Shown here in pieces: positions 486-53,860 of a stretch of 64,000 nt of DNA; positions within the stretch are counted from its first letter, which is position 1; each line of letters starts with the position of its first letter. The stretch is taken from the NCBI GenBank assembly GCA_965222575.1, contig OZ244958.1:288001-352000 (forward strand), given 5' to 3'. The notes below the pieces were generated by a model, which saw only the letters and a program-made list of their open reading frames with translations, made no database searches and had not been told where the DNA came from. This DNA is from Alphaproteobacteria bacterium (GTDB lineage: Bacteria > Pseudomonadota > Alphaproteobacteria > G965222575). The translations under genes and the position numbers were made by a program.

Positions 486-501
486 AGTCTTCTCCTATAT
501 C

Positions 502-1881: not shown

Positions 1882-1883
1882 AA

Positions 1884-2210
1884 TCAATCCTGTGCTGTTT
1901 GTGTTGTTAATGTACTCGGCGGCGTTGGCCAAGTTACAGAGTCTAGTATCGTTTTATCCGTAATGCCTTTTGTAATGTCTCGTAACGCTTGCCGGTAGGT
2001 ACCCCATTTTTCCTTTTCAACGGACGAAAGCGGTGCGTCAGGCAATTGCGTATAATCACTCATCAATAACAACGGCGCACGCACTTCCCGTATAGTCCCC
2101 AAAATGTCCTCTTTTGTCGGCAGGGGCGAAGAGGGTATTTCCACTTGTTTGGTGCGCGTAATCACACGTCCAGCTTGGAGGCTATAGAGAGTTGCCTTAT
2201 GTTGTGGCAT
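1884..2210 (-). CDS. Tail fibre assembly chaperone
   Basis: SDYTQLPDAP...WGTYRQALRDIT...VTWPTPP motif; directly downstream of the fibre gene. Confidence 0.85.
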   Translation of the reverse strand: MPQHKATLYSLQAGRVITRTKQVEIPSSPLPTKEDILGTIREVRAPLLLMSDYTQLPDAPLSSVEKEKWGTYRQALRDITKGITDKTILDSVTWPTPPSTLTTQTAQD

Positions 2211-3589
2211 TACACCCTCCCTATAAATTGTTCCGCAGAAAAATCAAACCGGTGTCCCGCTTCCCCTGAGTAAGGGGCAATACTCAATGCCTTGACAGTT
2301 GACCTCAATAAGAGTGTTGGCTCAGTGTAAAAATGCTTATAATAGAATTGATAATTAAAGTAATCTATACTATACCCCCTCACACCACTACCACCACCGT
2401 GAAGTGCGAAAAAGCTAGTGCTATGCAAGAAGTGATGATGCACTGAAGGAGTGATGAAGAGCCCTTTGGAAAAAATGATGTGAGTGTAAGTTGGTCGATG
2501 CTGTATCTCCATTTGAAAATCCACTGATTGTGTATCCTTTGGTATCTTTAAGCGCCAGTAGGCTAGGTTAGTTACAGTGTAGTCATATATCTCTAGCCTC
2601 ATCGCCTCCACATTAACGACTTGATTAGAAGCATCAGTAAATACAAATTTATAGCCGCTTTCATGTGTGTTGTCTCTTGGCGTTAGTGAGAATTTTATCT
2701 GTATACGTGGTTGAGAGGAGGGCGCTATAACTGTTGAGTCGAATTGGGTGCTATTTTCATTTGTCCCAGACAATGTTTGATTATAAGAGATGGGGGGAAA
2801 CCATGACCGCGCGGCGGCACTCCCCGCAGGCGTCACAGCCCTTATTGTATCCGTGCCCGTTTTTGTTTCTTCTGTTGTGGCTAATTCTACAATGCCCCGC
2901 CCACTCTCCGACGCAAGGGGAATTGGATTAACCAAAGCGGGGACAGCAGACCTCAAGCCCGCAGGCGTTACAGCACGAAGGGAATCTCTCCCGTCTCTCG
3001 CCTCATCCTCCGTTGCTAACTCTACTAATCCCGCTTGACTACTACTAGCTGTGGGGGCTGACGGCGCATGGGCAAGTACACTAGCTTTAACGCCCGCAGG
3101 TGTAGTGATTTTATTGTCCACAATCCCCCCCAAAACCTCATCCGCTGTGGCTATAGGGGCTATACCCGCCACCAGTGGCGTTGCCCGTGGAAACAAAGGC
3201 GTAACATCCCCCGTTGTAATTGTTGTGGGGGAGATACTGTGAAGTTGTAAAAATAGCACAAAAGAGACTGTCTCATTGGCTTCCTTTGTTGCTATGGGTG
3301 TGCTATGAGAACCATAAGCAAAGAGGACTCCCTCACTGGTTATTACGCCTATTTCTTTGGCTGACCAGTCATCACTACTTTCATCCAAAACTGACAAACT
3401 CAGTGCGTTTCCAACCTCTTGAACAGACGCAATCGTTAAAGTTTTGACAGTGTTGGCAATAGTGGTGGGGGAACTCTGATTATCACTTCCCAAGTGTATC
3501 TCTGTAAGGGATAATTTTACACCAGACGCCGTAGCATCTGTTGCCGCTTGTAACCCCTCTGATGTAATGGATAAGTTTAATACAGGCAT
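2210..3589 (-). CDS. Phage tail fibre protein
   Basis: P2 gpH-like N-terminus (ITSEG...AKEIGVITSEGVLFAYG), three G(L/I)xxxAT..E...VTPAG repeats, divergent C-terminal region. Confidence 0.85.
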   Translation of the reverse strand: MPVLNLSITSEGLQAATDATASGVKLSLTEIHLGSDNQSSPTTIANTVKTLTIASVQEVGNALSLSVLDESSDDWSAKEIGVITSEGVLFAYGSHSTPIATKEANETVSFVLFLQLHSISPTTITTGDVTPLFPRATPLVAGIAPIATADEVLGGIVDNKITTPAGVKASVLAHAPSAPTASSSQAGLVELATEDEARDGRDSLRAVTPAGLRSAVPALVNPIPLASESGRGIVELATTEETKTGTDTIRAVTPAGSAAARSWFPPISYNQTLSGTNENSTQFDSTVIAPSSQPRIQIKFSLTPRDNTHESGYKFVFTDASNQVVNVEAMRLEIYDYTVTNLAYWRLKIPKDTQSVDFQMEIQHRPTYTHIIFSKGLFITPSVHHHFLHSTSFFALHGGGSGVRGYSIDYFNYQFYYKHFYTEPTLLLRSTVKALSIAPYSGEAGHRFDFSAEQFIGRV

Positions 3590-3595
3590 ATCCCC

Positions 3596-3631
3596 TTTAT
3601 AGCAAAGAGAATATGATATGTTCAGAGTCTA
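3596..3631 (-). promoter_or_regulatory. Putative phage late promoter (TAGACTCTGAACA-17nt-TATAAA), 6 nt before the fibre ATG
   Basis: Same 13-mer and identical spacing to the start codon as at 11035-11070. Confidence 0.6.
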
Positions 3632-3979
3632 AGAATAAGTATTATCACCTCTTCTGTCTACTACTTCTACAGTGAAGCTTTCCTCTTCTAATTTGTCATC
3701 AAAGCACGGAAAGTCCCCCCATGGCGTTTTATAACAATATTGTCCAATGACTCGTAATCTTCCCTTCTTAAATCGCATGGGAACAAATGTAAAACCGCTT
3801 TCACAAAATATTTTTTGACCTTTAAGCTTTTCAGCAAAACTTTTCGGAAACTTATTTTGTGGTCTGTAAAGAAAGATTTTTTTTATTTCTTCAAGAAGCT
3901 CTTTCTCGTTTTCACTAAGACGAAGTTTTTGTATTTTTTTGTTTCCTTCCTTGGAAACCTGAAAACAACGCGGCAACAT
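3629..3979 (-). CDS. Hypothetical basic protein, putative toxin partner of the Panacea antitoxin
   Basis: ATG immediately follows the TAG of the antitoxin gene; AT-rich insert between tail genes; no recognisable motif. Confidence 0.5.
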   Translation of the reverse strand: MLPRCFQVSKEGNKKIQKLRLSENEKELLEEIKKIFLYRPQNKFPKSFAEKLKGQKIFCESGFTFVPMRFKKGRLRVIGQYCYKTPWGDFPCFDDKLEEESFTVEVVDRRGDNTYS

Positions 3980-4603
3980 CTACAGACGAGATAAACACTC
4001 TTCCAAAGATATGCATTCTTTTGGGTCTATAGGTTCTGAAGAGACTAGCTCTTCTGCCTCTAACATTTTCCAATCTATAGGATGGGTTTTGGCCCCTTCT
4101 TTTTTTGCTTTCCCCCATGCAAGTCTCCATAGTTCTTCTTCGTGGGACAAATCACAGAGAGAATAAAACTCCATTTTTGCGCAATCATCAGAGGCTCTTT
4201 GTAAATACTCTAAATCCGCATCAGTTAAAGTTTTTTTAGAAAAAGGAATCCTGCTTGTGCAATGCAACCGCCTGCTTCCCGTAGACTCATCAGAGCAATC
4301 TTCAACGCGCACTTTTTCATAAAAAGAGTGAACTCTGGGGGAATATTTATTCTTTTCCTCCGGAAGATCAAGAACATCTTGCATGGCCACGTACTCGTCA
4401 TCCAGAAGACCAAGAGCATTTTCAGGAACAGGACCTGCTTGCATTGCCACATAAGAAGACGTGGAAACAAGGCAATTTCTCTCCAGCATAGAGACCTTAT
4501 CTGCATAATATAAACTCTTCATTAAATGATAATGCCCTATACAGGGATGTCTATCTACTATAAAATGTAGTGACTCCACGAGCTTATTAAAATCAACAGA
4601 CAT
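3980..4603 (-). CDS. Panacea (DUF4065/SocA-like) antitoxin-domain protein
   Basis: LMKSLYYAD...YVAMQAGPVP...LCDLSHEEELWRLAW motifs typical of the family. Confidence 0.8.
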   Translation of the reverse strand: MSVDFNKLVESLHFIVDRHPCIGHYHLMKSLYYADKVSMLERNCLVSTSSYVAMQAGPVPENALGLLDDEYVAMQDVLDLPEEKNKYSPRVHSFYEKVRVEDCSDESTGSRRLHCTSRIPFSKKTLTDADLEYLQRASDDCAKMEFYSLCDLSHEEELWRLAWGKAKKEGAKTHPIDWKMLEAEELVSSEPIDPKECISLEECLSRL

Positions 4604-4665
4604 CCCTATCCCTTTCTCTAATCAATCATTTGTTGTTACAGTTTACAGAAAATTGTTAAAAAAAG

Positions 4666-5211
4666 TCAACCCCCTATATCTATTTGAATGATTTTCATCA
4701 GCCTTATTCCAACCCACAGAAACAAGTCAGAGGGGATTTTATAGTTGTTAGCGTCTCCGGGCGTTTCAATTGTATAATGAACGCCCGCTGGCTTTGTCCT
4801 GTTGACTATCTCTTTGATTTTTCCCTTCAGTTCTTCTTCCCCCCCTGTGCTACTGGTCATTTTCAAAACAAAAGTGCGGGGGCGCCCTTGTGGACGTTGG
4901 TCATACCACTCAAGGACTTCAATGCCAACTCCTTCATACGCTAATACTTCCCTCAGACTTCTCACTGTGCCTTTGTCCATGTGGGTTTGAATAGCTTGCT
5001 TAAGAATTGTGCGTTTACTTGTTTCACTCCAATCCTCTTCCCAGACGTCCACCGACAAAGTAAGGGCTAAATGCGCCAATAAATGTACGGGCAAGGACTC
5101 AACATCCATGGGCTTAGGGGTATCAAGTGCTAGCCTTTTGTCAGCTGTTGTATCCAGCGCTCTCTCAAGGGGCGTACTGTTATCAGGGAGAATGGTACCA
5201 CTAGTGGTCAT
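4666..5211 (-). CDS. Phage tail protein I (P2 gpI-like)
   Basis: ILPDNSTPLERAL...LAHLALTLSVDVWEEDWSETSKR...HMDKGT...EWY motifs. Confidence 0.9.
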   Translation of the reverse strand: MTTSGTILPDNSTPLERALDTTADKRLALDTPKPMDVESLPVHLLAHLALTLSVDVWEEDWSETSKRTILKQAIQTHMDKGTVRSLREVLAYEGVGIEVLEWYDQRPQGRPRTFVLKMTSSTGGEEELKGKIKEIVNRTKPAGVHYTIETPGDANNYKIPSDLFLWVGIRLMKIIQIDIGG

Positions 5212-6112
5212 ATTGTTATTCTCTCCGTAATCTCAATGGGATGTAGCATATATGACGCCTTTGAAACATCTTGCGAGGGCGCTGTAACGGAGATATCCTC
5301 AACTCCTTCCCCTTGTAGTGCCGCCCCCACCATAAAGGGGGTGAGTTTACCACCTATTTTGTGTTGTGACTTGGCCAAGGCACGCGCTCTGTTGCGCGCC
5401 GCTTCTAACACAGAAGCTTTTTGCGGCCCTTCTACTAAAGACACAGTCGCAGTGATGGCCACAGTTTGTATTGTTGCGGCGGCTACTGTAATACTATCCG
5501 TTACAGCCCGCACTTTTCTTTCTGTAGTGCCGTCTTAACTTTTGCTATTAACCCCCTATCCGCTAGCCCACTAGTGGGGTAACCACTGGGATTGCTGTCT
5601 GTTTGTTGTGCTAGAACTTCTACACGCACCACCCCGGGGGACGGCGATGTAATGCCTACATCTTTCACTTGTGCGTCTGCGGCTAAAGCATGCGCCTTGT
5701 ATGCCCCCGCTGTTCCGCCCCCAGTCAAGCCTTCTGGGGCTAACAGAATCCTCTTGCGTAACGCATCATCGTCCTCCAGTACTTCCTCTGAACCTGTTTC
5801 CTGAGACGCCTCCTGAACAACTTTACGGGTCAATCCAAATAACGCCGCCAAATGCTCTAAGTCCGCTCCCGTTGCTGTGGCCAAGTAAGACGCACTCACA
5901 GAGTGATTGATGCGATTGCGTAATAATAACTCGCGGTAGGCAAACGCTTCTAATACTTTTGTCACAGGGTCGCTTTCTAGGGCATCTACAAAAGACGGAT
6001 ACCGCGCCTGAAAATCTGTTTTGAGTGCCGCAAGAATGCCCTCGTAACTCAACTCCTCTATGGCTTGAGGCGGAGGCAACGCAGTCAAATCTAAATCAAC
6101 GTATACACTCAT
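5208..6112 (-). pseudogene. Baseplate J protein split by a frameshift in an A-run near 5515
   Basis: ORF 5501-6112 (LPPPQAIEELSYE...ATGADLEHLA) and ORF 5208-5513 (VRAVTDSITV) join into a P2 gpJ-like protein if one A is added; could be a sequencing error. Confidence 0.8.
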
Positions 6113-6461
6113 ACTATCTCACTTCTCAGCGTTATAGGCTCTTTTGTCTCTTTAAGAAAAGCCCTTACAAAAACAATCATAGTGGGCTAGCCTCTTTCCC
6201 CGATTCAAAGGCAATATCCGTCCTTATCACACTTATACGCGGCTCCCATTTACTCAGTGCTTCTGCCGTGGCGTGCGCCGCTTCTAAGCGTGTCGCTTCC
6301 CCCGCCGGCTTGTCCAACAAGTCCATTAACGCACTTCCGTAATCTGGGCGCATGACACGACTGCCTATGGGAGTCGTCAAAATATCATCAACGGACTGTT
6401 GTAAATGCCCTAATCCTCCTAGAGGCAACCCCGTACTTCTATTCATGCCACTAGTAGTCAT
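6109..6461 (-). pseudogene. Baseplate W/gp25 protein with a frameshift near its C-terminus
   Basis: GMNRSTG...HLQQSVDDILTTPIGSRVMRPDYGS...WEPRI; an alternative frame IVFVRAFLKETKEPITLRSEIV ends in a TGA overlapping the gpJ ATG. Confidence 0.75.
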
Positions 6462-6916
6462 ACCCCTCCTCCCACTGTCATTATGGGTTTGCCGTTCAGT
6501 GTACAGACACCCTTTAACGCTACTCCACTACTTGTTACTTTAACCTCCCCACCACCAAGCTTGAGTGTAATGGCATTACGGCGCACATCAACCAAATTAT
6601 CCCCATCCGCAGTAATCACCCGTAATCCCCCCTGAATACTTGTTTTTTTCAGCCTCGTCTCTTCCTCGCCGAGTACCATTACCCCACTAGTGGGTACACC
6701 CCCATCCGTTGTTGCTGGAAGCCCACTAGTGGGAGGGTGATTCGCATCAAACACACAGCCAATTATCACACCTCTATTAATGTTGCCTTCTGGTACGAGT
6801 ACCACGACTTGCTCCCCCACTTTAGGCGCCCACCACATTTTCGTCCCCCACACTACCCACGGCAAAGGCGGCGTAATAAGTTCTCCACTCTTTACCACTG
6901 CTTTTTTCGCCTCCAA
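6458..6916 (-). CDS. Baseplate spike gpV, N-terminus apparently truncated
   Basis: LPW...WWAPKVGEQVVVLVPEGNINRGVIIG motif; upstream frame closed by a stop shortly before SVDLEAK. Confidence 0.8.
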   Translation of the reverse strand: MEAKKAVVKSGELITPPLPWVVWGTKMWWAPKVGEQVVVLVPEGNINRGVIIGCVFDANHPPTSGLPATTDGGVPTSGVMVLGEEETRLKKTSIQGGLRVITADGDNLVDVRRNAITLKLGGGEVKVTSSGVALKGVCTLNGKPIMTVGGGV

Positions 6917-6976
6917 GTCTACAGATTTGAACTTTCACGCCTAGTAACCCCTGAGAGGGGATTTTATCCTTTGTTC

Positions 6977-7381
6977 TTATCCCCATCTTTCTACCTCAAA
7001 TTCATCCATCCAAAATAGTGCGCTCGGCAATAAATCCAACAGCCGTCCTCGTATAAACAGGTAGGGTTGTAACTGGTTTCCTACGCGGATGTTGGAGGCA
7101 ACAGTAACTGCGTTCTTCACCTGCTTTCTCATCTCATCTAATTTCCCTGCTACCTTTGAACCTCTCCGGTCATCAACAGATTTAAGACAAGTCACAATGC
7201 CAAAAGTGTTGGTGGTCTTAATTACGCGCCGATTGCCTTTGTCAAACACACCTCTTGACGACAACGGCACAAATAGGAAGGACGGGAATGAGAATGTTTT
7301 GTCGTCTAAGTCACTTGCCTCCATAACCCACCCAGTCTCAAGACCAGCCGCTTTAAGCCCCTGTTGTATAAACCTATACAC
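6977..7381 (-). CDS. Mu gp37-like tail terminator/completion protein
   Basis: Position after gpG; FIRGRLLDL...LFWMDEF C-terminus. Confidence 0.6.
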   Translation of the reverse strand: MYRFIQQGLKAAGLETGWVMEASDLDDKTFSFPSFLFVPLSSRGVFDKGNRRVIKTTNTFGIVTCLKSVDDRRGSKVAGKLDEMRKQVKNAVTVASNIRVGNQLQPYLFIRGRLLDLLPSALFWMDEFEVERWG

Positions 7382-7832
7382 CTGCTACCCTCCTGATAGT
7401 ACTCCTTAGGATATCCGCAATTTCTCTCTTGTCCTCCGCTCCAACGCCCAAAAACGGACGGGCTGGAACTTGTGACTGATACCCACTGGGCGCCGCGCCT
7501 TGACCAAATTGATGAAATGCCGCGTATTCTATATTCGTGCCAATGGTCACTGCTTGCGCCCCCGCCGCATAAGTAATTGACTGGTATAACCTCCGCGTAT
7601 CCTGAAGAGCTTTAGACCCTCTACCCGCCTTACGCCGCACTATAGTAGACGGCGCTAAGGGTTGCCACGCCATACCATCTGGGGAACGTTCCCGCTCAAA
7701 GTTATCTTGTGTGCTAGAGACCATGGACATTCCGATATCCTGTAGTGCTTTTGTCACTGCCAACGGCGCAGATTGCGCTAAGCGCTTAAGCAATGCTTTG
7801 GCTTCCGATGTCTTAATTTTAACTCTAATCAT
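7374..7832 (-). CDS. Phage virion morphogenesis protein (Mu gpG / P2 gpS family)
   Basis: NFERERSPDGMAWQPLAPST...LQDTRRL...IGTNIEYAAFHQFG...PARPFLG. Confidence 0.92.
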   Translation of the reverse strand: MIRVKIKTSEAKALLKRLAQSAPLAVTKALQDIGMSMVSSTQDNFERERSPDGMAWQPLAPSTIVRRKAGRGSKALQDTRRLYQSITYAAGAQAVTIGTNIEYAAFHQFGQGAAPSGYQSQVPARPFLGVGAEDKREIADILRSTIRRVAGV

Positions 7833-7834
7833 GG

Positions 7835-8161
7835 CTAGCTAAACACCCTTGGCTTTCCTTCAACCCCCACCTGTGACCCCCCGGGATAAGGGAGAGTTGC
7901 ACCAGTTGCTACCCGCTTTATAACCTCAAGTGCCACCTCATAACGCTCTTTCACCAGCGGGGGCAATACGTCTTCATAAACCCTTGCGTGGGCAATATCC
8001 ATGAGTATCGTTCGCAACTGGGGCAACTCGGGATTAACACCATAGGCTCGTATCATCTCTACAGCCTCTCCTATAGCCGCTGTCAAGTGAGAGTCCGAAT
8101 AGTGTCCACCTTCCCCTAAAGCCCTATATCGCTCTTTTAACTCCGTCGCCGTTAGAGTCAT
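7835..8161 (-). CDS. Mu gp36-like head-tail connector
   Basis: Position after the capsid gene; DIA...VKERYEVALEVIKRVATG motif. Confidence 0.7.
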   Translation of the reverse strand: MTLTATELKERYRALGEGGHYSDSHLTAAIGEAVEMIRAYGVNPELPQLRTILMDIAHARVYEDVLPPLVKERYEVALEVIKRVATGATLPYPGGSQVGVEGKPRVFS

Positions 8162-8165
8162 ATAC

Positions 8166-9026
8166 TTACGCCAAGTAGGGTGAGACTAGTATATCTGCTG
8201 TCTTGTACCACGGGTTACTCTTGCCAGCGTCCGTCCGCTCATTGCCTACCACTTCCCGCGCTTTTTGCTCCAGCGCAGGGGGAACAATAAGGAGATTTGG
8301 GATAACACCAATAGGCACCCCTGAGTCGCCTTTCATTGCCATCAATTTCTGCCTCCCTTTGGCATAGTTCTCCGCATTCAAAGTTTGCTTAGAACCCCAC
8401 GCAAACTGAGGCAAACCAAATCCCGCGGCAACTCGCGCCTCCACGCCAAATAAATACATATTGCGCATAAACCGCGTATCGCCGGTATCAGAAGTAAGGG
8501 AGGTGGTCATATAGTTTTTGCGTACCTGAAAAATCAAGGGCTTCAACGCCTTACTCGCATCCAACAGAAACCAAGGAGTTCCACTGCCACCATCCGTATT
8601 CCTATTCACCAAGAAGAAAGTTTTCCCATCGTAACCTTTTATAGTCCACCCCTTCTTCAGTAAGGCAAATACTAACTGATTAGGATGGGCAGCGGCGTTT
8701 GCTCCAAGTAGCCGTGCCGCATCACCATAAGACGCTATTTTGTTGTCCTCCAACTCTGTCACTGGTATCTCTAGGGTATCTTCATAAAGAATGTTTTTCA
8801 GAGCAAAACCACTGACTTTTAGTTTGTCCAAAGCTCTGTTTCCTATCCATTCCTTCAGTCCCGTGATTTTGCCTAGCCAAGGATAATTCGTAGTATCTGA
8901 ATCACTCCTCGTCACAGTTGCGACTTTTTTATAGTCCTCAGTGTTGCCAGTGGGTTTCAGTCCCTCTTTGAACGCCGTGTTAAGTCCCGTTTCTAAGGCT
9001 TTCAAATCCAAAGTTTTCATAGTCAT
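8166..9026 (-). CDS. Mu-like major capsid protein gpT
   Basis: YPWLGKITGLKEWIGNR, YDGKTFF, PWFLLDASKALKPLIFQVRK, NLLIVPPALE motifs. Confidence 0.95.
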   Translation of the reverse strand: MTMKTLDLKALETGLNTAFKEGLKPTGNTEDYKKVATVTRSDSDTTNYPWLGKITGLKEWIGNRALDKLKVSGFALKNILYEDTLEIPVTELEDNKIASYGDAARLLGANAAAHPNQLVFALLKKGWTIKGYDGKTFFLVNRNTDGGSGTPWFLLDASKALKPLIFQVRKNYMTTSLTSDTGDTRFMRNMYLFGVEARVAAGFGLPQFAWGSKQTLNAENYAKGRQKLMAMKGDSGVPIGVIPNLLIVPPALEQKAREVVGNERTDAGKSNPWYKTADILVSPYLA

Positions 9027-9047
9027 TTTCTTTTTCCTTTTTTTGAT

Positions 9048-9773
9048 TTAGTTTAGTTTTATGGTGGCTTGTCCACTCTTTATATCCACTATTTTCCCCA
9101 CCTCGGTACTACCCGTAGAAGTTACAGTAATTGTATTGCGCGACGCTATGTACGCTTTTTTGCCAATGTTGGCGCGGGCTAATGTCGTTGTAAAGACGGC
9201 TTGCCCCCCAGATTGTATATATAATTTCTTCCCGCCCCGCGCCGCTGTGAGGGCAATACCGACAATCACAGCGTTTTGTTTTTTCACCGCCGGTACAGCC
9301 TTGCCGCCATCATTCTCCACAAGGTCTCCTAACGCAACACTTGAGCCTGCTTTTACTGTCATCTCTAATACATACAAGCTTGGTAAGGTCGGAGAGTCCA
9401 CTAACTCCACCCACACATTGCTATTTTCCAAAGAGCGCACAATGCCAACAGCTGTGGTAGCTGCAGGAGCTTTTGTCACTGTGGTAGCATCCAATATATA
9501 AGCAAGACCCCCAATATCTTCTTGCCCTAGAGGACTATCACTGTCATTGGCAAAGCCAAATACAGCGTTGATTCTCACTCGTATCACTTCACCAGTACTC
9601 TCTGAATTGTAAATTGTCTCATCGGCAACACCCACAATCTTTACCCCCACACCTGCCACTGCTTCTTTGACTTTCTCCCCCACTGCCATTACAAGCGCCC
9701 CAGCAGAGATACTCTCTTCATCGGCAACTGCAAATGATGTTATATAGTGCGAGGGATTTTTTACTTCAGTCAT
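9048..9773 (-). CDS. Capsid decoration/cement-like protein with two tandem domains (DUF2190-like)
   Basis: Between protease and capsid; two copies of a G..V.....A.PA....IVG.A...DIG..AYI....TV domain. Confidence 0.65.
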   Translation of the reverse strand: MTEVKNPSHYITSFAVADEESISAGALVMAVGEKVKEAVAGVGVKIVGVADETIYNSESTGEVIRVRINAVFGFANDSDSPLGQEDIGGLAYILDATTVTKAPAATTAVGIVRSLENSNVWVELVDSPTLPSLYVLEMTVKAGSSVALGDLVENDGGKAVPAVKKQNAVIVGIALTAARGGKKLYIQSGGQAVFTTTLARANIGKKAYIASRNTITVTSTGSTEVGKIVDIKSGQATIKLN

Positions 9774-9776
9774 GTC

Positions 9777-10139
9777 TTACTCCACATACACCCAGACTTT
9801 GCCATCCTCCAGCGATTTTACCTTCCCAATGGCGGTATTGCCTGAATCAGATTTAATGACAGTTTGCGCATCAGATATATACGCACTGCCTCCTATTTCT
9901 GTCGCCGTTACACCCCCAGATGCCGCGTTCTTGAAACCAAAGACGCAACCACTGCGCACACGGACTTTCTCTCCTGCCTTCGCTCCATGAGTAGCAATGC
10001 CCACCAACACAGCATTTTCTTTCTTGGTGGCGGGTATGGCTTTGCCCCCAGAATTCTCCACAAGGTCTCCCTCCACTATTGTAGTACTTGCCTTAACAGT
10101 GAGCTCTACAATGTAATGACTGCTTCCTTTAACTAACAT
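9777..10139 (-). CDS. Capsid decoration/cement-like protein (single domain), paralog of the neighbouring gene
   Basis: VELTVKASTTIVEGDLVENSGGKAIPATKK matches the second domain of 9048-9773; likely start MLVKG. Confidence 0.65.
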   Translation of the reverse strand: MLVKGSSHYIVELTVKASTTIVEGDLVENSGGKAIPATKKENAVLVGIATHGAKAGEKVRVRSGCVFGFKNAASGGVTATEIGGSAYISDAQTVIKSDSGNTAIGKVKSLEDGKVWVYVE

Positions 10140-11028
10140 TTTGCTCTCCCTTTGTTTTTGAGTACTCTTTCTCATCTAATCCAAATTTCGCACAAACCTC
10201 CTTCTCCGCATCACTTAAAGTCTCTATTTTCCCGCCCCCCGTAGGTGTAGACAACGGCGCAAACAGTGCCAACTTCTCAGACTTGCTAGCGAGTATCTCC
10301 GTTACATACTCACTGCCTCCCTCTTTCTCAAGCCAACCTAAATACGTGGCTTTTTCAGTTGGGAGTACTTTGCCTTCCGCACAAGAAGCTTCTACTTGCG
10401 CTTTTAATGCGTGCTTTTCCTCCTTAAGCTTCTCTTCCTCCGCCTTTTCTTGTTCTGCTTTGAGCGCAAGGTTTTCCTTTTCTAATAGCTCAACCTGCTT
10501 CTGCAATGTCAAAAGCTCAGTCTGCTCAACAGCCGCTGTTACTGGTTGTTTGTCCGTCATTGTAGTCTCCTGTTGTGTAGTAAATAATTCTTTCAAGGAC
10601 AACGCTGGGTTGTTTGTTAAAGCAATGCGCTTGATTTTGCGCACAATGAATTTGTCTTTTCTCCCTTCATAATCTAACACCTCCTCGCCTGTTAAAGTAG
10701 GCGACAACCCCCTGAATTCCTTGTCCTCAACAGACTTTTTCCCCACTTCTGTCCACTCAACATCTCCCCATATGCCGCTCGACTCCGCTTTTAAGTTGCG
10801 TACCCAGCCAGCCGCCTTACTTGACCCACCGTACTTGTCGGTGCCATGGTCAAAGTCTATATGGATTTCCTTTGGCGAGGCCTTGATAATCTCCTCTAGC
10901 GACTCAAAGTCCATGACACGCCCATCGCGTGCTGTAATCTTGCCCGCACGAGGCGTAATCTGTATCCGCACAGGCGCCGTCACCTCGGCCGCTAACGCAA
11001 TCTCTAAGTAATAGTTTTCAGTATCCAT
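10129..11028 (-). CDS. Mu-like I prohead protease/scaffold
   Basis: ARDGR, IDFDHGT, KAAGWV, GIWGDVEWT, FRGLSP, ALTNNPAL motifs with coiled-coil C-terminus; start MDTENY. Confidence 0.93.
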   Translation of the reverse strand: MDTENYYLEIALAAEVTAPVRIQITPRAGKITARDGRVMDFESLEEIIKASPKEIHIDFDHGTDKYGGSSKAAGWVRNLKAESSGIWGDVEWTEVGKKSVEDKEFRGLSPTLTGEEVLDYEGRKDKFIVRKIKRIALTNNPALSLKELFTTQQETTMTDKQPVTAAVEQTELLTLQKQVELLEKENLALKAEQEKAEEEKLKEEKHALKAQVEASCAEGKVLPTEKATYLGWLEKEGGSEYVTEILASKSEKLALFAPLSTPTGGGKIETLSDAEKEVCAKFGLDEKEYSKTKGEQNVS

Positions 11029-11034
11029 ATCCCC

Positions 11035-11070
11035 CTTATACACCCCCTAAAACCCCTTGTTCAGAGTCTA
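11035..11070 (-). promoter_or_regulatory. Putative phage late promoter (TAGACTCTGAACA-17nt-TATAAG), 6 nt before the protease ATG
   Basis: Same 13-mer and spacing as at 3596-3631. Confidence 0.6.
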
Positions 11071-11097
11071 CTGAAACTTTTTTTGTGTCTAGACACT

Positions 11098-11125
11098 TTG
11101 ACTTTTAGAAGAGTTCGTATACAAT
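11098..11125 (+). promoter_or_regulatory. Sigma70-like promoter TTGACT-16nt-TACAAT directly upstream of a solitary CRISPR repeat
   Basis: The -10 ends 6 nt before the repeat; perfect palindrome GTGTCTAGACAC at 11085-11096 just upstream of the -35. Confidence 0.6.
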
Positions 11126-11131
11126 AATCTT

Positions 11132-11163
11132 GTCGCGCCCCTCGCGGGTGCGTGCATTGAAAC
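11132..11163 (+). CRISPR. Solitary type I-C-like CRISPR repeat (no array)
   Basis: GTCGCGCCCCTCGCGGGTGCGTGCATTGAAAC: 32 nt, GTCGC start, hairpin, ATTGAAAC end, as in I-C repeats. Confidence 0.85.
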
Positions 11164-11513
11164 ATCTTAGCAAGCTTAATACCCTGAGTAATAAAGTCCT
11201 CAGCCTGATTGTACGGGGGGTTGGTAACAATGTTGGGGACTTGCTTGTAGCAGGAGAGCGCTGAGATGAAATCCCAACCCGCCTCGCCATATCCATACTC
11301 GTAAAGGTCAGTTGATTTCACACAATATCCCGCCTGCTCTAATACTTTAGACATCGCCCCTAGTCCGCAAGCAGGCTCCCAGATATCGCCGACAAACTGC
11401 TCACACTTCAACAGCGCTTCTGTCGCCCAAACAGGAGTCGGATAAAAATCCGATTCAGGTCTACGCGGGGAACCACTAGTGGGGAACCCATTACTTTCCT
11501 TGATTTTCTTCAT
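11164..11513 (-). pseudogene. Small phage SAM-dependent N6-adenine methyltransferase, truncated at the CRISPR repeat
   Basis: DFYPTP, IWEPACGLG, TDL, NIVTNPPY motifs; after GIKLAKM the ORF reads through the repeat and promoter to a stop at 11061. Confidence 0.75.
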
Positions 11514-11627
11514 CTACCTGCTATAATAATTGGTAATGATGTCTGGGGAAGTTAAGTAGCATTGATCCACGGAAAGGTCGCCACTGCCGCTTCTTTGCTT
11601 CAGGTAAGCCGTGTTGCTTGGAGTACA

Positions 11628-12896
11628 TCATTTGCGTGTTCCCCCTTTTTTATATAAAAGAAACCCTTCTCGGACGTTGTTTAAGGTGTTCTTTTGACTG
11701 CGATTCAAAAATGTTAAGTCCTCTAACATACCTGCCGCCCCCTGAATAACAAAAATAACGTTGCTTTGTTCACCAAAATCAAGATTACAAATATATCTCT
11801 TTCTGATAACAGGCATACTCCTGCCCTTATAAACTCTCCTTTCAATGGTGCGCCAGATTTCTTGAGGGTTCTTGATTGCCTCCAGTAGTCCGCTTATATA
11901 TTTCCCACGCTTCAACCCCTTGCTCTGATATAAGTGTAGAGCTAGAGACTTTGCGTTTACTCTCACCGCTCCACCCATCACATCTTTCATGATGACATTA
12001 CCCCCACCCATGACTTTAGCAATGGATTCTTCCAGCTCTTTACCACTTGATGGCGAAGGGCTTGGCTTCATTTTTTTCAGTACGGGCAACTTTTCCTCAA
12101 GTCCGTGGTCTTTCCAATTTTTCAGGTTTTTGTTTGTTATCATCCACTTTTTTTTGTTCATCCCCCACGCCCGCAGTGTCGCAAACCCGAGGAAATCCGC
12201 GTAATTCCCCGTCCCAGCATTATAGGCAAAGCCCGGTGATATCCCCTGTGGCACACTCACCATTACCCGCCCCGCACTTGTGGTCATAGGGCGTATTTCC
12301 TTCCTAACGCGGGGGGCTTTTTTGGCAACTTTTAATCCTCGCCGACCCAAATCCCTATCATTAAGACTTTGGACACTACACCGACAACCCCAGCCATTAG
12401 GCGGCGTATGAGTCGACCACCACCCATCATCCACAGGGAGTATGGTATTATGCCAACTGCCATGCTCCGGGCGCTCCCGACCATCCATTAGTGCCGTATA
12501 ACGGAGATAGGGACGCGTTTCTTTGGTTGACTGTATCTGCTCCCACCGCCCTGCCGCATAGGCACTCCGTATGTTGGTCTGATAGATTATTCGACTCCGC
12601 CATGCTTTGTACTTTCTTCCTCCCTTTTGATACTTTTTCCAGCCGTGCCGTCCCGCAATTTCATTGAGATTTTTTCTGAACCACTTTAAGTCCTTGCCCT
12701 CTTCCATTGCGCGCAACAGAGAAGTATGGATATCCGCTAAACATTGCTCATTGCGCAGACCAGCCACCATAAAGGCACGACTATGCGCCCCCTGCCAAAT
12801 GTCATTCCAGCGCTCTGTTGGAACTTTGTGCTTCTTCTGCAGGAAATCAATAGCTTCTCCAAAAGGTAAGCCTCTGTTTATGACCTCACTCGTCAT
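11628..12896 (-). CDS. MuF/SPP1 gp7 minor head protein with C-terminal PBECR2-like extension
   Basis: AFMVAG, YQTNIRSAYAAGRW, DGRERPEH, PPNGWGCRC motifs; C-terminal LEAIKNPQEIW...KRYI. Confidence 0.88.
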   Translation of the reverse strand: MTSEVINRGLPFGEAIDFLQKKHKVPTERWNDIWQGAHSRAFMVAGLRNEQCLADIHTSLLRAMEEGKDLKWFRKNLNEIAGRHGWKKYQKGGRKYKAWRSRIIYQTNIRSAYAAGRWEQIQSTKETRPYLRYTALMDGRERPEHGSWHNTILPVDDGWWSTHTPPNGWGCRCSVQSLNDRDLGRRGLKVAKKAPRVRKEIRPMTTSAGRVMVSVPQGISPGFAYNAGTGNYADFLGFATLRAWGMNKKKWMITNKNLKNWKDHGLEEKLPVLKKMKPSPSPSSGKELEESIAKVMGGGNVIMKDVMGGAVRVNAKSLALHLYQSKGLKRGKYISGLLEAIKNPQEIWRTIERRVYKGRSMPVIRKRYICNLDFGEQSNVIFVIQGAAGMLEDLTFLNRSQKNTLNNVREGFLLYKKGGTRK

Positions 12897-14120
12897 TATC
12901 TTTGTATTCGTCTTGCCCTACCAAATGAGACAACGCTATGGCTTGTTGTAGTTTCTTTGGCGCTTCCCCTTTGATGTCTAACGCCTCTAGTTTGCCCGCC
13001 AAATCCTCTAAGGATGTAGCTTTGTTAGTAAGCTTTTCAATGTCTTTTAATATCTCCGCATCCCCATCACTCTCAAGCGATTCCTCTACTAAATAATCCA
13101 CACTATCCAGCACCTCCTCATCTTCTCCTGCTGCCATCTCTTCGTCTTTAGAGACCTCAGAGAGGCTTTGTGTGGTCATCCCCTCTGTCGCACCTGTCCG
13201 CGAAGGCGTATCATTTTCGTCCTTAGGCGCCGGCAATCCTAACTTTGAGCGTATAGCCTCTGCTGAGATTTTTACCCCTCTATCCATGGCCTTCATCACC
13301 ATGTCCATATCCGCCTTTTCTTCTGGCTCTATGACAATCTTGGGATATGCCTGCCTCTCACCACGATTAAGTGCCACTATCAACGGCACGACTTGCCTAT
13401 TGATTGTCTGGGCAATGGCAGTAGCATCCGACCTTAAAATAGAGGCTTTAACTTCGCCGTGGACTTTGGCTTGTGACATTGACGACCCGTCATCCGTTGT
13501 CATAGTTTGACCCAACACAAGCTTTGATATCTGTTTGTTAGAGTATTCTAACAATTTCTGATGGTCTGAGGAGGATTGGCCTTTGCCCCAAATCAACTCT
13601 ATATTCATACTTTGAGGCACCGCCGCCGCCATGTCAGACGACAGATTACGCAAGGCGCTCAACAGCTTTGTCTTGTCCTCTTCAGTGGCCTCCGCCCCAA
13701 ACTTGCCAACTCGAATAGGTTTGCCGAACAGTTCAAGATATTCCACCCAATCCTTCAGACTGAATTGCTGGTACAACCACAGCATCAACGCAGGCATAAG
13801 TAATCCTGCCGGAGTACCAGAAGACTTAAAACTATGCCGATGCACAACAATTTTGCCTTGTGGGATTTCCTCTTCATCTCCGACACTAGTGTCCTCTTTT
13901 TTCAGTTTCCATGCCCCCTCTTTGTGGACAAATCCCCTTTGGTCACGCCATTGAATATCCGGATGCCATACGTCCGAGTGGCGCCAAACAAGCTCTCCTA
14001 CCGAAAAACCCTTGGGGAGTGCGTCAAGTAAATCATAGACTACCTCTTCCCACGCTAATGACGATATCCATTGCTCTATTAACTCAGCATCGTCCTTTGA
14101 CGAAGGCGTATCATCCGCCG
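12886..14120 (-). pseudogene. Mu gp29-like portal (DUF935), frameshifted near 13900 and missing its N-terminus
   Basis: ELFGKPIRVGKF, ISKLVLGQTMTT; upstream frame reads ADDTPSSKDDAELIEQW...YDLLDALPKGFSVGELVW and ends where the ankyrin gene begins. Confidence 0.85.
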
Positions 14121-14588
14121 CTACACGAAGCAGCGAAAAAGGGGGATTTACAACAGTGCCAAGAGTTAATTTTGAAGGGACACGATGTTAATGAAAGAGA
14201 AGATAGTCGTTGGTCTGGTCACTTCACTCCTCTTCATTATGCTGCGGCGAGGGGACATTTGGATGTTGTATATTTACTCCTAAGTAGTGGTGCTCTTATT
14301 GATGCTCGGACTGTTTCAATGCGTGATACCCCCTTGGATAGAGCAAACAACAGAAGAAAGTGGAATGACGATGAGAGTACTAAGAAAATAGCGCTATTTT
14401 TAGCACAAGGAGGCGTTTGGGTAGAGGGACAAGATATCAACAAGGCTCTCCCTTCTGAGAAGGATAATACCCAAACACAGCCTAATGACCCCGATGAAGA
14501 TGATGGTGGTACTTTCTGGTTCTGGTTTTGGCTGATTTCAGCTATTTTCGTTGGCCTCGTAATTATAAGAAGAAAGAAGAAGAAATAG
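14112..14588 (+). CDS. Ankyrin-repeat protein with C-terminal TM anchor and basic tail; native 5' end apparently lost
   Basis: PLHEAAKKG, TPLHYAAARGH, TPLDRA; FWFWFWLISAIFVGLVII then RRKKKK; the first ~65 aa of ORF 13911 are antisense portal sequence. Confidence 0.75.
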   Translation, partial: HPPLHEAAKKGDLQQCQELILKGHDVNEREDSRWSGHFTPLHYAAARGHLDVVYLLLSSGALIDARTVSMRDTPLDRANNRRKWNDDESTKKIALFLAQGGVWVEGQDINKALPSEKDNTQTQPNDPDEDDGGTFWFWFWLISAIFVGLVIIRRKKKK

Positions 14589-14649
14589 CGTGTTGCCAAG
14601 CACGCTTTATAGCTTTATAGTATATTTATGGATAAAAATATAAAGGTGA

Positions 14650-15075
14650 ATGATGAAAAAGCTAATGATACTCAGTGCTTTGGGTGTAATCATAACACTT
14701 ACTTTTCATAGCCACCCTGTTAAGGCAGGAGTTTTAGATTCACTGCTCAAGCAACTGGTTGAGGAGAAAACTGGTATCTCAATTGACCAACTGACAAAGT
14801 CTATCCAAGAGGCAGCAAAAGCTGGAGATTTGAAGGGGATAAAAAAATTCATAGGGGAGGGAGCAAACATCAATGGGAGTTCTTTCGCGGACTCACCGCT
14901 GAAAAAAGCTATTGAGGGGGGGCACAAGGAGGTAGTAGCGTTCCTAGTGGAGAAGGGGGCTTCTGTGAAGGTACAGGATAAGGACGGCTTAACACCGCTT
15001 CAGTTAGCGGTTAAAGGAGGCAATAAGGATATAATTAGTATCCTAGAAACAGAACTCAATAAGACAGAAAATTAG
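14650..15075 (+). CDS. Secreted ankyrin-repeat protein (copy 1, intact signal peptide)
   Basis: MKKLMILSALGVIITL...VKA signal peptide; SPLKKAIEGGH and TPLQLAVKGG repeats. Confidence 0.88.
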   Translation: MMKKLMILSALGVIITLTFHSHPVKAGVLDSLLKQLVEEKTGISIDQLTKSIQEAAKAGDLKGIKKFIGEGANINGSSFADSPLKKAIEGGHKEVVAFLVEKGASVKVQDKDGLTPLQLAVKGGNKDIISILETELNKTEN

Positions 15076-51208: not shown

Positions 51209-51218
51209 CCCGTTCCTC

Positions 51219-52286: not shown

Positions 52287-52365
52287 CATACAAGAAACAC
52301 AATTTTAAGCATTTAGAGATAGCCTATTGCCACGTAAAGGAAGTAAATCTATAGTGTAACTAGGT

Positions 52366-53763: not shown

Positions 53764-53776
53764 AGCTTTTGGGGAA

Positions 53777-53860
53777 GGCTGGAGGTCTCTGGCTGGAAGT
53801 CTCTGGCTGGAGGTCTCTGGCTGGAGGTCTCTGGCTGGAAGTCTCTGGCTGGAAGTCTCT
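53777..53860. repeat. 6 x 14-bp tandem repeat GGCTGGA[G/A]GTCTCT
   Basis: Counted directly. Confidence 0.95.

What the first reader, a model, noticed from the sequence alone, without database searches (positions are those of the whole stretch)
11132..11200. CRISPR repeat fused directly onto a phage methyltransferase gene: possible spacer-protospacer recombination scar that removes the PAM
Seen: the MTase homology stops exactly at the repeat end. The bases after ATTGAAAC (ATCTTAGCAAGCTTAATACCCTGAGTAATAAAG) are antisense MTase coding sequence (..FITQGIKLAKM). Known: the I-C PAM is 5'-TTC, and a repeat end in the PAM position marks self. Inference: if the intact gene continued ATG-AAx (M-K, plausible for the usual ..KVAMLL continuation), the + strand would have read TTC-ATCTTAG, a perfect PAM plus protospacer. 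The locus may come from recombination with a leader-repeat-spacer. That would protect this prophage from self-targeting and express a guide against relatives with the intact MTase.
Basis: partly seen in the sequence, partly recalled or inferred. Interest (0 to 1): 0.82.

Follow-up and report, generated by a model that had tools for sequence, protein, structure and literature searches.

The report
Solitary CRISPR repeat inside a prophage
A single CRISPR repeat with its own promoter has replaced the end of a methyltransferase gene in a Mu-like prophage, at the very spot where the intact gene carries the CRISPR recognition motif, which suggests that the phage once recombined with a CRISPR spacer aimed at it.

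Summary
Window 11132-11163 (+) is one solitary type I-C CRISPR repeat. It lies 6 nt behind a sigma-70-like promoter and abuts the antisense 5' part of a phage methyltransferase (MTase) gene that has lost its last 83 codons. The locus sits in the head-gene block of a defective Mu-like prophage. The same 1.2-Mb genome carries a complete I-C system (cas3-cas5-cas8c-cas7-cas4-cas1-cas2 plus about 30 repeats) 270 kb away. Its repeat differs from the solitary one at 4 of 32 positions.

Homologues do not end here. In contigs of two public runs the intact allele reads TTC exactly where the repeat's last three bases now lie. Only the first base after it differs (T, against A here).

I therefore read the locus as a product of recombination between a leader-repeat-spacer unit and its protospacer, which removed the PAM (confidence about 0.55). 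The donor was not found. The upstream piece does not resemble the host leader, so a phage-borne mini-array is the likelier donor.

What the element does now is open: an RNA anti-CRISPR-like decoy, a one-repeat guide, or an inert scar. C24 in the Cas5c recognition trinucleotide argues against full activity.

The parts
11085..11096 (.). Perfect 12-bp palindrome GTGTCTAGACAC just upstream of the -35 hexamer. It is native phage intergenic DNA and may be an operator.
   Evidence: Read. It lies in the part that an X2 contig also covers (11011-11099, 3 differences). It is absent from the remnant copy at genome ~992,100. Its function was not tested.
11098..11125 (+). Sigma-70-like promoter: TTGACT, 16 nt, TACAAT. 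It ends 6 nt before the repeat. The -35 lies in native DNA and the -10 in the foreign 25-nt piece.
   Evidence: 10 of 12 consensus matches; 3 promoter-like sites found in 10800-11800 against 1.3 +/- 1.2 in shuffles. A consensus match only; no RNA data are available.
11107..11131 (+). 25-nt leader-like piece (AGAAGAGTTCGTATACAATAATCTT), foreign to the native allele.
   Evidence: the X2 allele-specific contig starts at 11106, and the other allele runs on unlike the window after 11106. The remnant in L006 also diverges here. There is no likeness to the host leader.
11132..11163 (+). Solitary type I-C CRISPR repeat unit (SRU).
   Evidence: It is 28/32 identical to the host repeat and 30/32 to the widespread variant. 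Its first 17 nt equal those of the host array's terminal degenerate repeat.
11164..11198 (+). Pseudo-spacer: the 35 nt after the repeat, antisense MTase coding sequence. It is identical to the intact allele from 11165; base 11164 is A here and T in the intact allele.
   Evidence: The 35-nt length is nominal, taken from typical spacers of the host array. No second repeat follows: 11196-11228 has about 15/32 matches by eye and no hairpin beyond shuffles (z +0.40).
11166..11513 (-). Truncated N6-adenine-type MTase gene (residues 1-116 of about 199, including the NPPY motif). The open frame reads on through the repeat to a stop at 11061.
10129..11043 (-). Mu I-type protease/scaffold gene, next downstream in the late-gene direction.
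   Evidence: Pfam Mu-like_Pro, E 7.2e-30.
11628..12896 (-). Mu F-like head morphogenesis gene with a PBECR2 nuclease-like C-terminus, next upstream.
   Evidence: Pfam Phage_Mu_F E 9.7e-22 and PBECR2 E 1.4e-15.
6252..6288 (+). Imperfect protospacer of host array spacer 22, inside a baseplate wedge gene of the same prophage. The three bases 5' of it are TTT, not TTC.
   Evidence: 22/24 core match, E 0.006, the only spacer hit outside the array with E below 0.2. Sequence read; gene named (phrog_43). The gapped reading of 29/36 is my own by eye.

Best explanation
The locus is a recombination product. A leader-repeat-spacer unit of a type I-C CRISPR array carried a spacer taken from this phage MTase gene next to a TTC PAM. 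It recombined with that protospacer in the phage. On the right the crossover lay inside the spacer/protospacer homology. On the left it lay at or before the shared TTGACTTTT of the intergenic promoter region. The result replaced the 3' end of the MTase gene (at least 83 codons) and the native intergenic DNA with 58 nt: a 25-nt leader piece, the 32-nt repeat and one base.

The protospacer now follows AAC of a repeat instead of TTC, so it is marked as self and can no longer be attacked through that spacer. The donor was more likely a mini-array in a sibling phage than the host's own array. The 25-nt piece is unlike the host leader. The repeat carries two changes (T18, C24) that are absent or nearly absent from ordinary arrays, although the adjoining MTase DNA is identical to the intact allele.

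What remains is a solitary repeat unit directly behind a promoter, in a prophage whose host has a complete I-C system. That is the anatomy of an RNA anti-CRISPR (Racr) candidate. I infer that it is transcribed from about 11131-11133 and that the hairpin RNA can still engage host Cas5c/Cas7 as a decoy.

Shown: the anatomy, the truncation, TTC at the junction of the intact allele, and the host system. Inferred: the recombination event, the kind of donor, transcription, and any activity.

My odds. Origin by spacer-protospacer recombination, about 0.55-0.65. Present activity, given that origin or not: decoy about 0.3, guide about 0.15-0.2, none about 0.4.
For: - The repeat is solitary and of I-C type and keeps the 7-bp stem and pentaloop.
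- The gene is truncated. P0003 and the family continue for about 83 residues, and that C-terminus is absent from the genome.
- The intact allele appears in contigs of X1 and X2. The 30 letters before window 11165 translate in antisense as KLAKKKVAMLLRLA (my translation), matching P0003's KLAEKKVAMLLRLA. They place TTC at the positions equivalent to 11161-11163.
- The allele-specific X2 contig spans exactly 11106-11198, so the foreign piece is 11107-11164.
- The host has a complete I-C operon and an array. Spacer 22 of that array matches this prophage imperfectly, so the system has met its relatives.
- TTC is the working I-C PAM in B. halodurans and X. oryzae (PMC7049708, passages; PMC8406640, abstract).
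- The promoter ends 6 nt before the repeat. [quoted passage not shown]
- Leaders of phage mini-arrays differ from host leaders, and spacer gain by recombination has been proposed for them (PMC7099407).
- The slot next to the protease/scaffold gene is where Mu-like Pseudomonas phages keep their anti-CRISPR region (PMC3993853).
Against: - No donor was found. There is no array, mini-array or second copy with this exact repeat or with the 25-nt piece plus repeat. None of the host's 32 spacers matches the MTase, nor does any of 132 fetched loci.
- The first base after the repeat (A) differs from the intact allele (T).
- The TTC lies in a (CTT)3 run made by three Lys codons. Such a run contains TTC in one register of three and could itself attract microhomology joining (TCTT), so the 2% figure overstates the surprise.
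- The intact allele is known only from a 30-letter consensus of one contig per run, in two samples of one study.
- Against present activity: C24 changes the U22-G23-G24 trinucleotide on which B. halodurans Cas5c recognition centres (PMC8524198). No C occurs at that position in 1,836 repeat copies from 120 loci.
- The predicted fold pairs G23 and C24 with U2 and G1.
- The promoter is only a consensus match, and the transcript would run antisense to the late operon.
- The prophage looks defective: the portal gene lacks its N-terminal third and no terminase or early genes follow.
- No acr or aca gene was recognised nearby; I did not test for one.
Confidence: 0.55

Rival explanations
1. Inert scar. 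Whatever its origin, the repeat is a decaying relic in a defective prophage. It is not made as RNA in useful amounts, or Cas5c no longer recognises it, and it does nothing today.
For: C24 lies in the Cas5c recognition trinucleotide (PMC8524198) and is unseen among 1,836 natural repeat copies. The prophage lacks the 5' third of the portal gene and everything beyond it. The MTase is a pseudogene. The genome holds another prophage remnant.
Against: The hairpin is intact: 3 of the 4 differences from the host repeat lie in the loop or keep pairing as G-U. A 10/12 promoter sits 6 nt upstream. The allele is present unchanged in a second sample. S. mutans Cas5c tolerates changes next to the cut site (PMC8524198).
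Confidence: 0.4
2. A mobile Racr cassette was inserted by illegitimate or microhomology joining. A promoter-plus-repeat module landed in the MTase gene by chance, the TTC in the intact allele is a coincidence of the Lys-codon run, and no spacer was ever involved.
For: SRUs behind promoters are common in (pro)viruses: 2,103 were found (PMC10651486). The junction shares TCTT with a (CTT)3 run. Base 11164 does not match the intact allele. No matching spacer is known.
Against: The cassette was found nowhere else. TTC stands in exactly the right register, on the right strand and in the right orientation relative to the repeat, as predicted beforehand. The -35 of the promoter is native DNA, so the 'cassette' would not be self-contained.
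Confidence: 0.25
3. One-repeat guide for rivalry between phages. Because I-C Cascade has no Cas6 and Cas5c sits on the 5' handle, the single upstream repeat suffices. Cas5c cuts after nucleotide 21, and the RNA that follows (11-nt handle plus MTase antisense) loads Cascade and directs Cas3 against sibling phages with the intact, TTC-flanked MTase. The carrier's own copy is protected by the repeat.
For: The pseudo-spacer matches the intact allele from base 2 onward, with TTC in place. Both alleles coexist in samples X1 and X2. Viral mini-arrays typically carry one spacer against a close relative (PMC7099407). Cas5c binds the 5' handle at the tail of Cascade and recognises the nucleotides downstream of the cut (PMC8524198).
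Against: No downstream repeat defines the 3' end. C24 lies in the handle. There is a mismatch at guide position 1. In type I-F a functional crRNA needed an added second repeat (PMC10651486). The intact allele persists beside the carrier in the same samples, although the two could be in different cells.
Confidence: 0.17
4. Regulatory crRNA-like RNA. The repeat plus the adjoining bases guide Cascade by partial pairing to a host promoter (cas genes or another defence system) and repress it.
For: Prophage mini-arrays that repress cas genes are described (bioRxiv 10.1101/2023.03.03.530964; abstract of 10.1101/2024.10.29.618823). One TTC plus 10-nt seed match lies between a promoter-like site and the start of a hydrolase-like ORF at genome 404950-404962.
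Against: The genome-wide search for TTC plus the first 14 nt, with up to 3 mismatches, gave 3 hits, none in or near the cas locus. A TTC-flanked exact copy elsewhere is found for 1,843 of 27,574 control 10-mers (6.7%), so the one hit is at chance level. The 'spacer' is simply the phage's own gene in place.
Confidence: 0.03
5. Assembly chimera that joins a CRISPR array read to a prophage contig.
For: Other I-C arrays with similar repeats are present in the same metagenome (table 5c and the loose end behind 11165).
Against: A contig from a second sample covers 11106-11198 with no difference, with 58 and 35 nt on either side of the junction. The genome is a single 1.2-Mb contig.
Confidence: 0.02

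Closest known systems
Solitary repeat units / RNA anti-CRISPRs (Racrs), including RacrIC1 (Camara-Wilpert et al. 2023, PMC10651486; sections 6 and 9 and passages read)
   Same: A single CRISPR-like repeat in a provirus, not next to other repeats or cas genes, directly behind a predicted promoter. It is of the same subtype as the host's CRISPR-Cas system and the hairpin is kept.
   Different: It is fused in register to a truncated phage gene whose intact form has a PAM at the junction. It is antisense to the late operon. It carries C24 in the Cas5c recognition trinucleotide. No acr gene was recognised beside it. Nothing is known of its expression or activity.
Virus-borne mini-CRISPR arrays (Faure et al. 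2019 and Medvedeva et al. 2019, both recalled; described in PMC7099407 and PMC8616872, passages read)
   Same: The leader is unlike the host's. There is one spacer-length stretch that matches a close relative's gene, with a correct PAM there. The carrier's own copy is protected.
   Different: There is only one repeat. The 'spacer' is not a separate insert but the carrier's own gene at its native place, running on for 350 nt.
Recombination between CRISPR spacers and phage protospacers (Varble et al. 2019, Nat Microbiol; recalled; only its title was seen, in papers that cite it)
   Same: The homology between a spacer and its target serves as a crossover site that joins CRISPR DNA to phage DNA.
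   Different: That work concerns laboratory staphylococcal type II/III loci and transduction of CRISPR loci. Here there is a fixed natural product inside a prophage of an uncultured-type genome, with I-C and PAM loss. I did not read that paper.
Anti-CRISPR region of Mu-like Pseudomonas phages (Pawluk et al. 2014, PMC3993853, passages read)
   Same: The same slot in the head-gene block: directly before the protease/scaffold gene and after the F/G morphogenesis genes.
   Different: Those regions hold protein acr genes in the late-gene orientation. Here there is an RNA-type element on the opposite strand plus a broken MTase, and no G homologue was seen.
Regulatory mini-arrays / crRNA-like RNAs (Shmakov et al. 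preprint 10.1101/2023.03.03.530964, passages read)
   Same: A repeat-like unit outside an array, possibly with a diverged repeat.
   Different: No partial target was found at cas or defence promoters.

Membership tests
Type I-C CRISPR repeat | 32-nt unit with a 2-nt 5' overhang, 7-bp stem, pentaloop and 11-nt 3' overhang (as described in PMC8524198) | tested here: met
   stem 3-9/15-21 and loop 10-14 are kept, with G6-U18 in place of G-C. The predicted fold adds U2-G23 and G1-C24.
Type I-C CRISPR repeat | Sequence likeness to known I-C repeats, including the ATTGAAAC 3' end | tested here: met
   28/32 to the host array repeat. 30/32 to the variant found 1,615 times in 120 public loci.
Type I-C CRISPR repeat | U22-G23-G24 after the cut site (recognition focus of B. 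halodurans Cas5c, PMC8524198) | tested here: not met
   The SRU has U22-G23-C24. Position 24 is G in 1,617 and A in 219 of 1,836 copies, never C.
Type I-C CRISPR repeat | Member of an array of spaced repeats | tested here: not met
   There is no second copy within 9 mismatches outside the host array.
SRU / Racr candidate (criteria of PMC10651486) | Matches a known repeat and is not associated with other full or partial repeats | tested here: met
   The stretch 11196-11228 is not a repeat.
SRU / Racr candidate (criteria of PMC10651486) | Lies on a virus, provirus or plasmid | tested here: met
   It lies between the Mu I and Mu F genes of a myovirus-type prophage block.
SRU / Racr candidate (criteria of PMC10651486) | Promoter within 250 bp upstream | tested here: met
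   TTGACT-16-TACAAT at 11098-11125. A consensus match only.
SRU / Racr candidate (criteria of PMC10651486) | Intergenic location | tested here: inconclusive
   It lies behind a truncated gene. The broken ORF reads through it to 11061, so a gene caller would place it inside a CDS.
SRU / Racr candidate (criteria of PMC10651486) | Host encodes a CRISPR-Cas system of the same subtype | tested here: met
   All seven I-C cas genes give full-length Pfam matches and an array is present.
SRU / Racr candidate (criteria of PMC10651486) | Expressed as a small RNA, bound or processed by the Cas ribonuclease, and inhibits interference | not testable with these tools
   No RNA run is listed. This needs bench work.
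Viral mini-CRISPR array | A spacer flanked by two repeats, the second of which may be truncated | tested here: not met
   there is no second repeat.
Viral mini-CRISPR array | Spacer matches a related virus next to a valid PAM | tested here: inconclusive
   The 35 nt after the repeat match the intact allele from base 2 onward, with TTC in place. But they are the carrier's own gene, and only 30 + 35 nt of the other allele are known.
Viral mini-CRISPR array | Leader differs from the host leader (a feature of phage mini-arrays, PMC7099407) | tested here: met
   Local alignment score 9, against a shuffle mean of 9.8, sd 1.6.
Spacer-protospacer recombination product | Repeat end abuts the target in register with the PAM of the uninterrupted sequence | tested here: met
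   TTC stands at the equivalent of 11161-11163 in the intact allele. The background frequency is 2.0%.
Spacer-protospacer recombination product | A donor array holding the same repeat, leader and spacer | tested here: not met
   None was found in the host array, in viral, genome or metagenome collections, in GenBank phages, or in 132 fetched loci. These searches need exact or near-exact matches, so absence is weak.
Regulatory crRNA-like RNA | PAM-flanked partial match at a cas or defence promoter beyond chance | tested here: not met

The most novel reading that the evidence does not exclude
The prophage has turned its own broken gene into a permanent CRISPR guide. Recombination with a spacer both erased the PAM on its own copy and placed a promoter and repeat in front of it. 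In I-C, which has no Cas6 and where Cas5c sits on the 5' handle, a single upstream repeat would then be enough to load host Cascade with MTase antisense RNA and destroy sibling phages that still carry the intact, TTC-flanked gene. More generally, solitary repeats and Racrs in phages would arise as survivors of CRISPR attack by recombining with the very spacer that targeted them.
Probability: 0.17. Interest if true: 0.85.

Novelty: new variant of a known kind. Interest (0 to 1): 0.6.

Why it matters
Solitary CRISPR repeats in phages are known, and some act as RNA anti-CRISPRs, but how they get into phage genomes is not settled. I found no paper on their origin among those returned by my searches. 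Those searches cover open-access text only, and Faure et al. 2019 was not held.

This locus keeps both junctions of the event, and the uninterrupted allele still exists in the same samples. It therefore gives a concrete, testable origin: recombination between a spacer and its protospacer, which removes the PAM and leaves a promoter-driven repeat behind. If that holds more widely, CRISPR attack itself seeds phages with repeat mimics. One event would then yield escape, a possible decoy and a possible weapon against siblings.

It also shows a complete I-C system, a self-related spacer and a repeat-bearing prophage together in a 1.2-Mb genome rich in ankyrin-repeat genes.

Tried and rejected
- **Rfam scan of 10000-12500 at E up to 10:** no CRISPR-DR family hit the repeat. 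There were only two sub-threshold chance matches elsewhere, so Rfam gives no name.
- **Pfam and NCBIfam on the MTase ORF:** no family. PHROG 799 named it.
- **Exact or near-exact searches for a donor or a second copy.** The SRU 32-mer gave 0 hits in viral contigs and 0 in genome contigs. Window 11169-11191 gave 0 in metagenome contigs and viral contigs. Window 11119-11139 gave 0 in both. blastn of the SRU against GenBank phages gave no match.
- **P0003 in IMG/VR:** one relative at 48% identity, in a different gene context. Not informative.
- **Mu F protein in IMG/VR:** 6 loci at 32-40% identity. None holds an I-C-like repeat. In L016 a 377-aa ORF lies between the Mu F homologue and the next large ORFs; I did not analyse it.
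- **Relatives:** 40 genomes of the same class were searched with window 10400-12400. None has the locus; one (G013) only shares I-C repeats. The family holds no other genome.
- **Host spacers against the genome:** only spacer 22 hits the prophage, and none hits the MTase.
- **Second repeat after the pseudo-spacer:** rejected.
- **Regulatory-guide idea:** rejected as chance.
- **No RNA holder listed.** This says nothing about expression.
- **Run X3** (another study) holds parts of the prophage at low depth but has no cover of 11100-11500. X4 laid nothing. Neither counts for or against.
- **Phasing in X2:** I could not tell from contig depths which flanks go with which allele, nor how long the replaced native segment is. 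One X2 contig runs on for about 580 nt unlike the window without rejoining it.
- **Closed or unavailable sources:** Supplements of PMC10651486 (SRU lists) were closed. Faure et al. 2019 and Bondy-Denomy et al. 2013 are not held.
- **Organism:** I did not identify it.
Full report
**What is there**

Window 11132-11163 (+) reads GTCGCGCCCCTCGCGGGTGCGTGCATTGAAAC. It is a single copy in the window and in the whole 1,215,846-base, single-contig genome in which the window lies (window = genome 288001-352000). It is 2 mismatches from the I-C repeat variant GTCGCGCCCCTCGCGGGCGCGTGGATTGAAAC. No shuffle of the window (0 of 100) gives a match at up to 3 mismatches. It folds as a 7-bp stem with a pentaloop (-13.6 kcal/mol). 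This is the shape described for I-C repeats: a 2-nt 5' overhang, 7-bp stem, pentaloop and 11-nt 3' overhang, with the cut after nucleotide 21 (PMC8524198, passages read).

**Surroundings**

All neighbouring genes are on the minus strand and are phage structural genes:
- tail sheath, fibre, baseplate and neck genes at 502-7832 (PHROGs);
- Mu gpT major head 8166-9026, two cement-like genes, Mu I protease/scaffold 10129-11043, Mu F 11628-12896, and a Mu portal gene 12886-13845 that matches only profile positions 128-336 (Pfam).

Beyond 13845 come plus-strand ankyrin-type ORFs. The prophage therefore looks cut off and defective.

Between Mu I and Mu F lies the ORF 11061-11513 (-). It matches PHROG 799 'DNA methyltransferase' over residues 12-115. 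The repeat sits on the opposite strand, inside the tail of this ORF.

**The gene is truncated at the repeat**

The best outside homologue, P0003 (199 aa), is identical at 115 of the first 116 residues. It then continues ...KLAEKKVAMLLRLAFLEG..., whereas the window reads ...KLAKM and then translates the repeat. Of the 120 listed homologues, 118 are 172-205 aa long; the other two are the window's own 150-aa ORF and one 123-aa entry (search limited to 64-205 aa). An alignment of ten members shows a conserved C-terminal half that the window lacks. tblastn finds that half nowhere in the genome (best E 0.14).

**The host system**

At genome 26762-28954 (minus strand) there is an array of 33 repeat-like units, 29 of them identical (GTCGCGCCCCTTGTGGGCGCGTGGATTGAAAC). 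It lies directly behind cas2-cas1-cas4-cas7-cas8c-cas5-cas3. All seven genes give full-length Pfam matches.

The solitary repeat differs from the array repeat at four positions:
- positions 12 and 14, in the loop;
- position 18, in the stem (G-C becomes G-U);
- position 24, the third base of the 3' overhang.

Its first 17 bases equal those of the array's terminal, degenerate repeat. Spacer 22 matches the prophage's baseplate wedge gene at window ~6252-6288 imperfectly (22/24 core, E 0.006), with TTT rather than TTC in front. The system has therefore met relatives of this prophage, and nothing in the array targets the prophage perfectly today.

**Promoter and left junction**

TTGACT-16-TACAAT lies at 11098-11125 (10/12 consensus), 6 nt before the repeat. 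A second prophage remnant at genome 992148-992303 matches window 10930-11085 at 82%. After a 13-nt gap that removes the palindrome GTGTCTAGACAC (11085-11096), it shares TTGACTTTT and then diverges. In run X2 a contig fits 11011-11099, and another runs on after 11106 with letters that resemble the remnant and not the window. So the native DNA ends at 11106, and the -35 hexamer is native. The -10 hexamer, the remaining 6 nt and the repeat are foreign. The stretch upstream of the repeat shows no likeness to the host's leader (score 9, against 9.8 +/- 1.6 for 300 shuffles).

**Right junction and the PAM test**

Runs X1 and X2 come from one study and two samples; X1 may be the source of the assembly. 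Both hold the window sequence.
- In X2 a 93-nt contig covers exactly 11106-11198 with no difference. This is the allele-specific stretch plus its k-mer flanks.
- In both runs another contig fits from 11165 rightwards and carries 182 other letters before it. The last 30 are AAGCTAGTCTCAGTAGCATTGCGACCTTCT.
- Joined to 11165 onward and read in antisense (my translation), this gives KLAKKKVAMLLRLA, which is the intact MTase (compare P0003).
- On the plus strand the intact allele therefore reads ...CGACC TTC T TCTTAGCAAGC..., where the window reads ...TGAAAC A TCTTAGCAAGC....

TTC occupies exactly the three positions now filled by the repeat's AAC (11161-11163). The next base is T, against A in the window, and everything from 11165 is shared.

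TTC is the functional I-C PAM in the B. halodurans and X. oryzae systems (PMC7049708, passages; PMC8406640, abstract). On this strand TTC fills 2.0% of positions (7 of 348 in the retained gene part, and 2.0% over window 1-13900).

Three caveats apply. The TTC lies in a (CTT)3 run from three Lys codons. The first base after it disagrees. The other allele is known from only one contig per run.

**Reading of the origin**

A 58-nt piece (25 nt + repeat + A) replaces at least 252 nt of gene plus the native intergenic DNA. Its right end is in register with a PAM-flanked protospacer. Its left end lies at a 9-nt identity (TTGACTTTT) or in longer homology to the left. This is what a crossover between a leader-repeat-spacer unit and the matching protospacer would leave, and it removes the PAM from the survivor.

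The donor was probably not the present host array, for three reasons:
- The leader differs.
- The repeat has T18 and C24. Among 1,836 copies of this repeat class in 120 public loci, T18 occurs once and C24 never.
- Yet the adjoining 382 nt of MTase are identical between the alleles in X1, so the two repeat changes were probably already in the donor.

Phage-borne mini-arrays fit this. They typically hold one spacer against a close relative, their leaders differ from host leaders, and spacer gain by recombination has been proposed for them (PMC7099407; PMC8616872). Recombination between spacers and protospacers has been shown in staphylococci (Varble et al. 2019; recalled, not read). No donor was found in any collection I could search.

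**Reading of the present function**

By anatomy the element is a solitary repeat unit: one repeat, in a provirus, directly behind a promoter, with a host of the same subtype. In the published survey 83% of such units match the host subtype, and a type I-C one (RacrIC1) restored infection by a targeted phage (PMC10651486). Its slot, directly before the protease/scaffold gene, is where Mu-like Pseudomonas phages carry their anti-CRISPR region (PMC3993853).

Several points count against activity:
[quoted passage not shown] The element has C24, and the predicted fold pairs G23 and C24 with U2 and G1.
- S. mutans Cas5c is more tolerant (same paper), so this is not decisive.
- A guide function would need Cascade to load without a 3' repeat. 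That is conceivable in I-C, where Cas5c sits on the 5' handle, but it is untested, and in I-F a second repeat was needed.
- No RNA data exist.

I therefore commit to the origin at about 0.55-0.65. For present activity my odds are: decoy about 0.3, guide about 0.15-0.2, none about 0.4, other about 0.1.

**Novelty**

Solitary repeats and Racrs are known, and so are mini-arrays and spacer-protospacer recombination. What I did not find described is a solitary repeat caught in register with the PAM of its uninterrupted allele, which would give such elements a concrete origin. My searches were made, over open-access text only. Faure et al. 2019 is not held and the supplements were closed. I file this as a new variant of a known kind.

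Noticed in passing
outside the window: genome G000:C1:26762-28954 (locus L003 2763-4955): The host I-C array is irregular. Spacers run from 13 to 42 nt. Three repeats are truncated or degenerate in their 3' half (units 5, 30, 31). An inverted repeat copy lies inside the last 70-nt 'spacer'. The terminal repeat shares its first 17 nt, including the CTCGC loop, with the prophage's solitary repeat rather than with the array consensus.
   Followed up: partly
window 6252-6288: Host spacer 22 matches the prophage's baseplate wedge gene imperfectly (22/24 core; about 29/36 with one gap, by eye). TTT stands where a TTC PAM would be. This looks like an escaped or diverged target.
   Followed up: partly
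outside the window: genome 990648-993803 (L006): A second small remnant: the first ~40 codons of a Mu I gene plus the same promoter region (82% identical to window 10930-11085, without the palindrome). A 308-aa ORF follows that looks like a Dam-type MTase (the DPPY motif was seen by eye), and further ORFs come after it. No family search was run.
   Followed up: no
window 12886-13911: The Mu portal gene lacks its N-terminal third (Pfam profile positions 128-336 only). The prophage block ends there, and plus-strand ankyrin-repeat-like ORFs follow (13911-15075). So the prophage is truncated or rearranged.
   Followed up: partly
window 11085-11096: Perfect palindrome GTGTCTAGACAC directly upstream of the -35 hexamer. 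It is present in the native allele of X2 and missing from the remnant copy. It may be an operator.
   Followed up: no
loci L022, L032, L036, L044, L068, L100, L110, L119, L128 (genome contigs): Nine interior, apparently solitary copies of the widespread I-C repeat in unrelated public genomes, with no second repeat within 9 mismatches in the locus. I did not determine whether they sit in prophages or abut truncated genes. An ORF listing was inconclusive.
   Followed up: partly
outside the window: genome 404950-404962: TTC plus the first 10 nt of the pseudo-spacer occurs between a promoter-like site and the start of a hydrolase-like ORF. The control shows this is at chance level: 6.7% of prophage 10-mers have such a copy.
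   Followed up: yes
window 48070-54074 and 54577-58753: Dense tandem repeats with periods of 36, 21, 20 and 14 nt, and a ~1.86-kb segmental duplication (families D1, D2, D6, D7, D10, D12, D14). They are unrelated to the finding.
   Followed up: no
run X1, laid on window 11132-11165: The source metagenome holds at least one other I-C array with repeats at least 85% like the solitary repeat. Evidence: a repeat-36 nt-repeat joint, and a contig that leaves the window after 11165. Its spacers are not in the host array.
   Followed up: no
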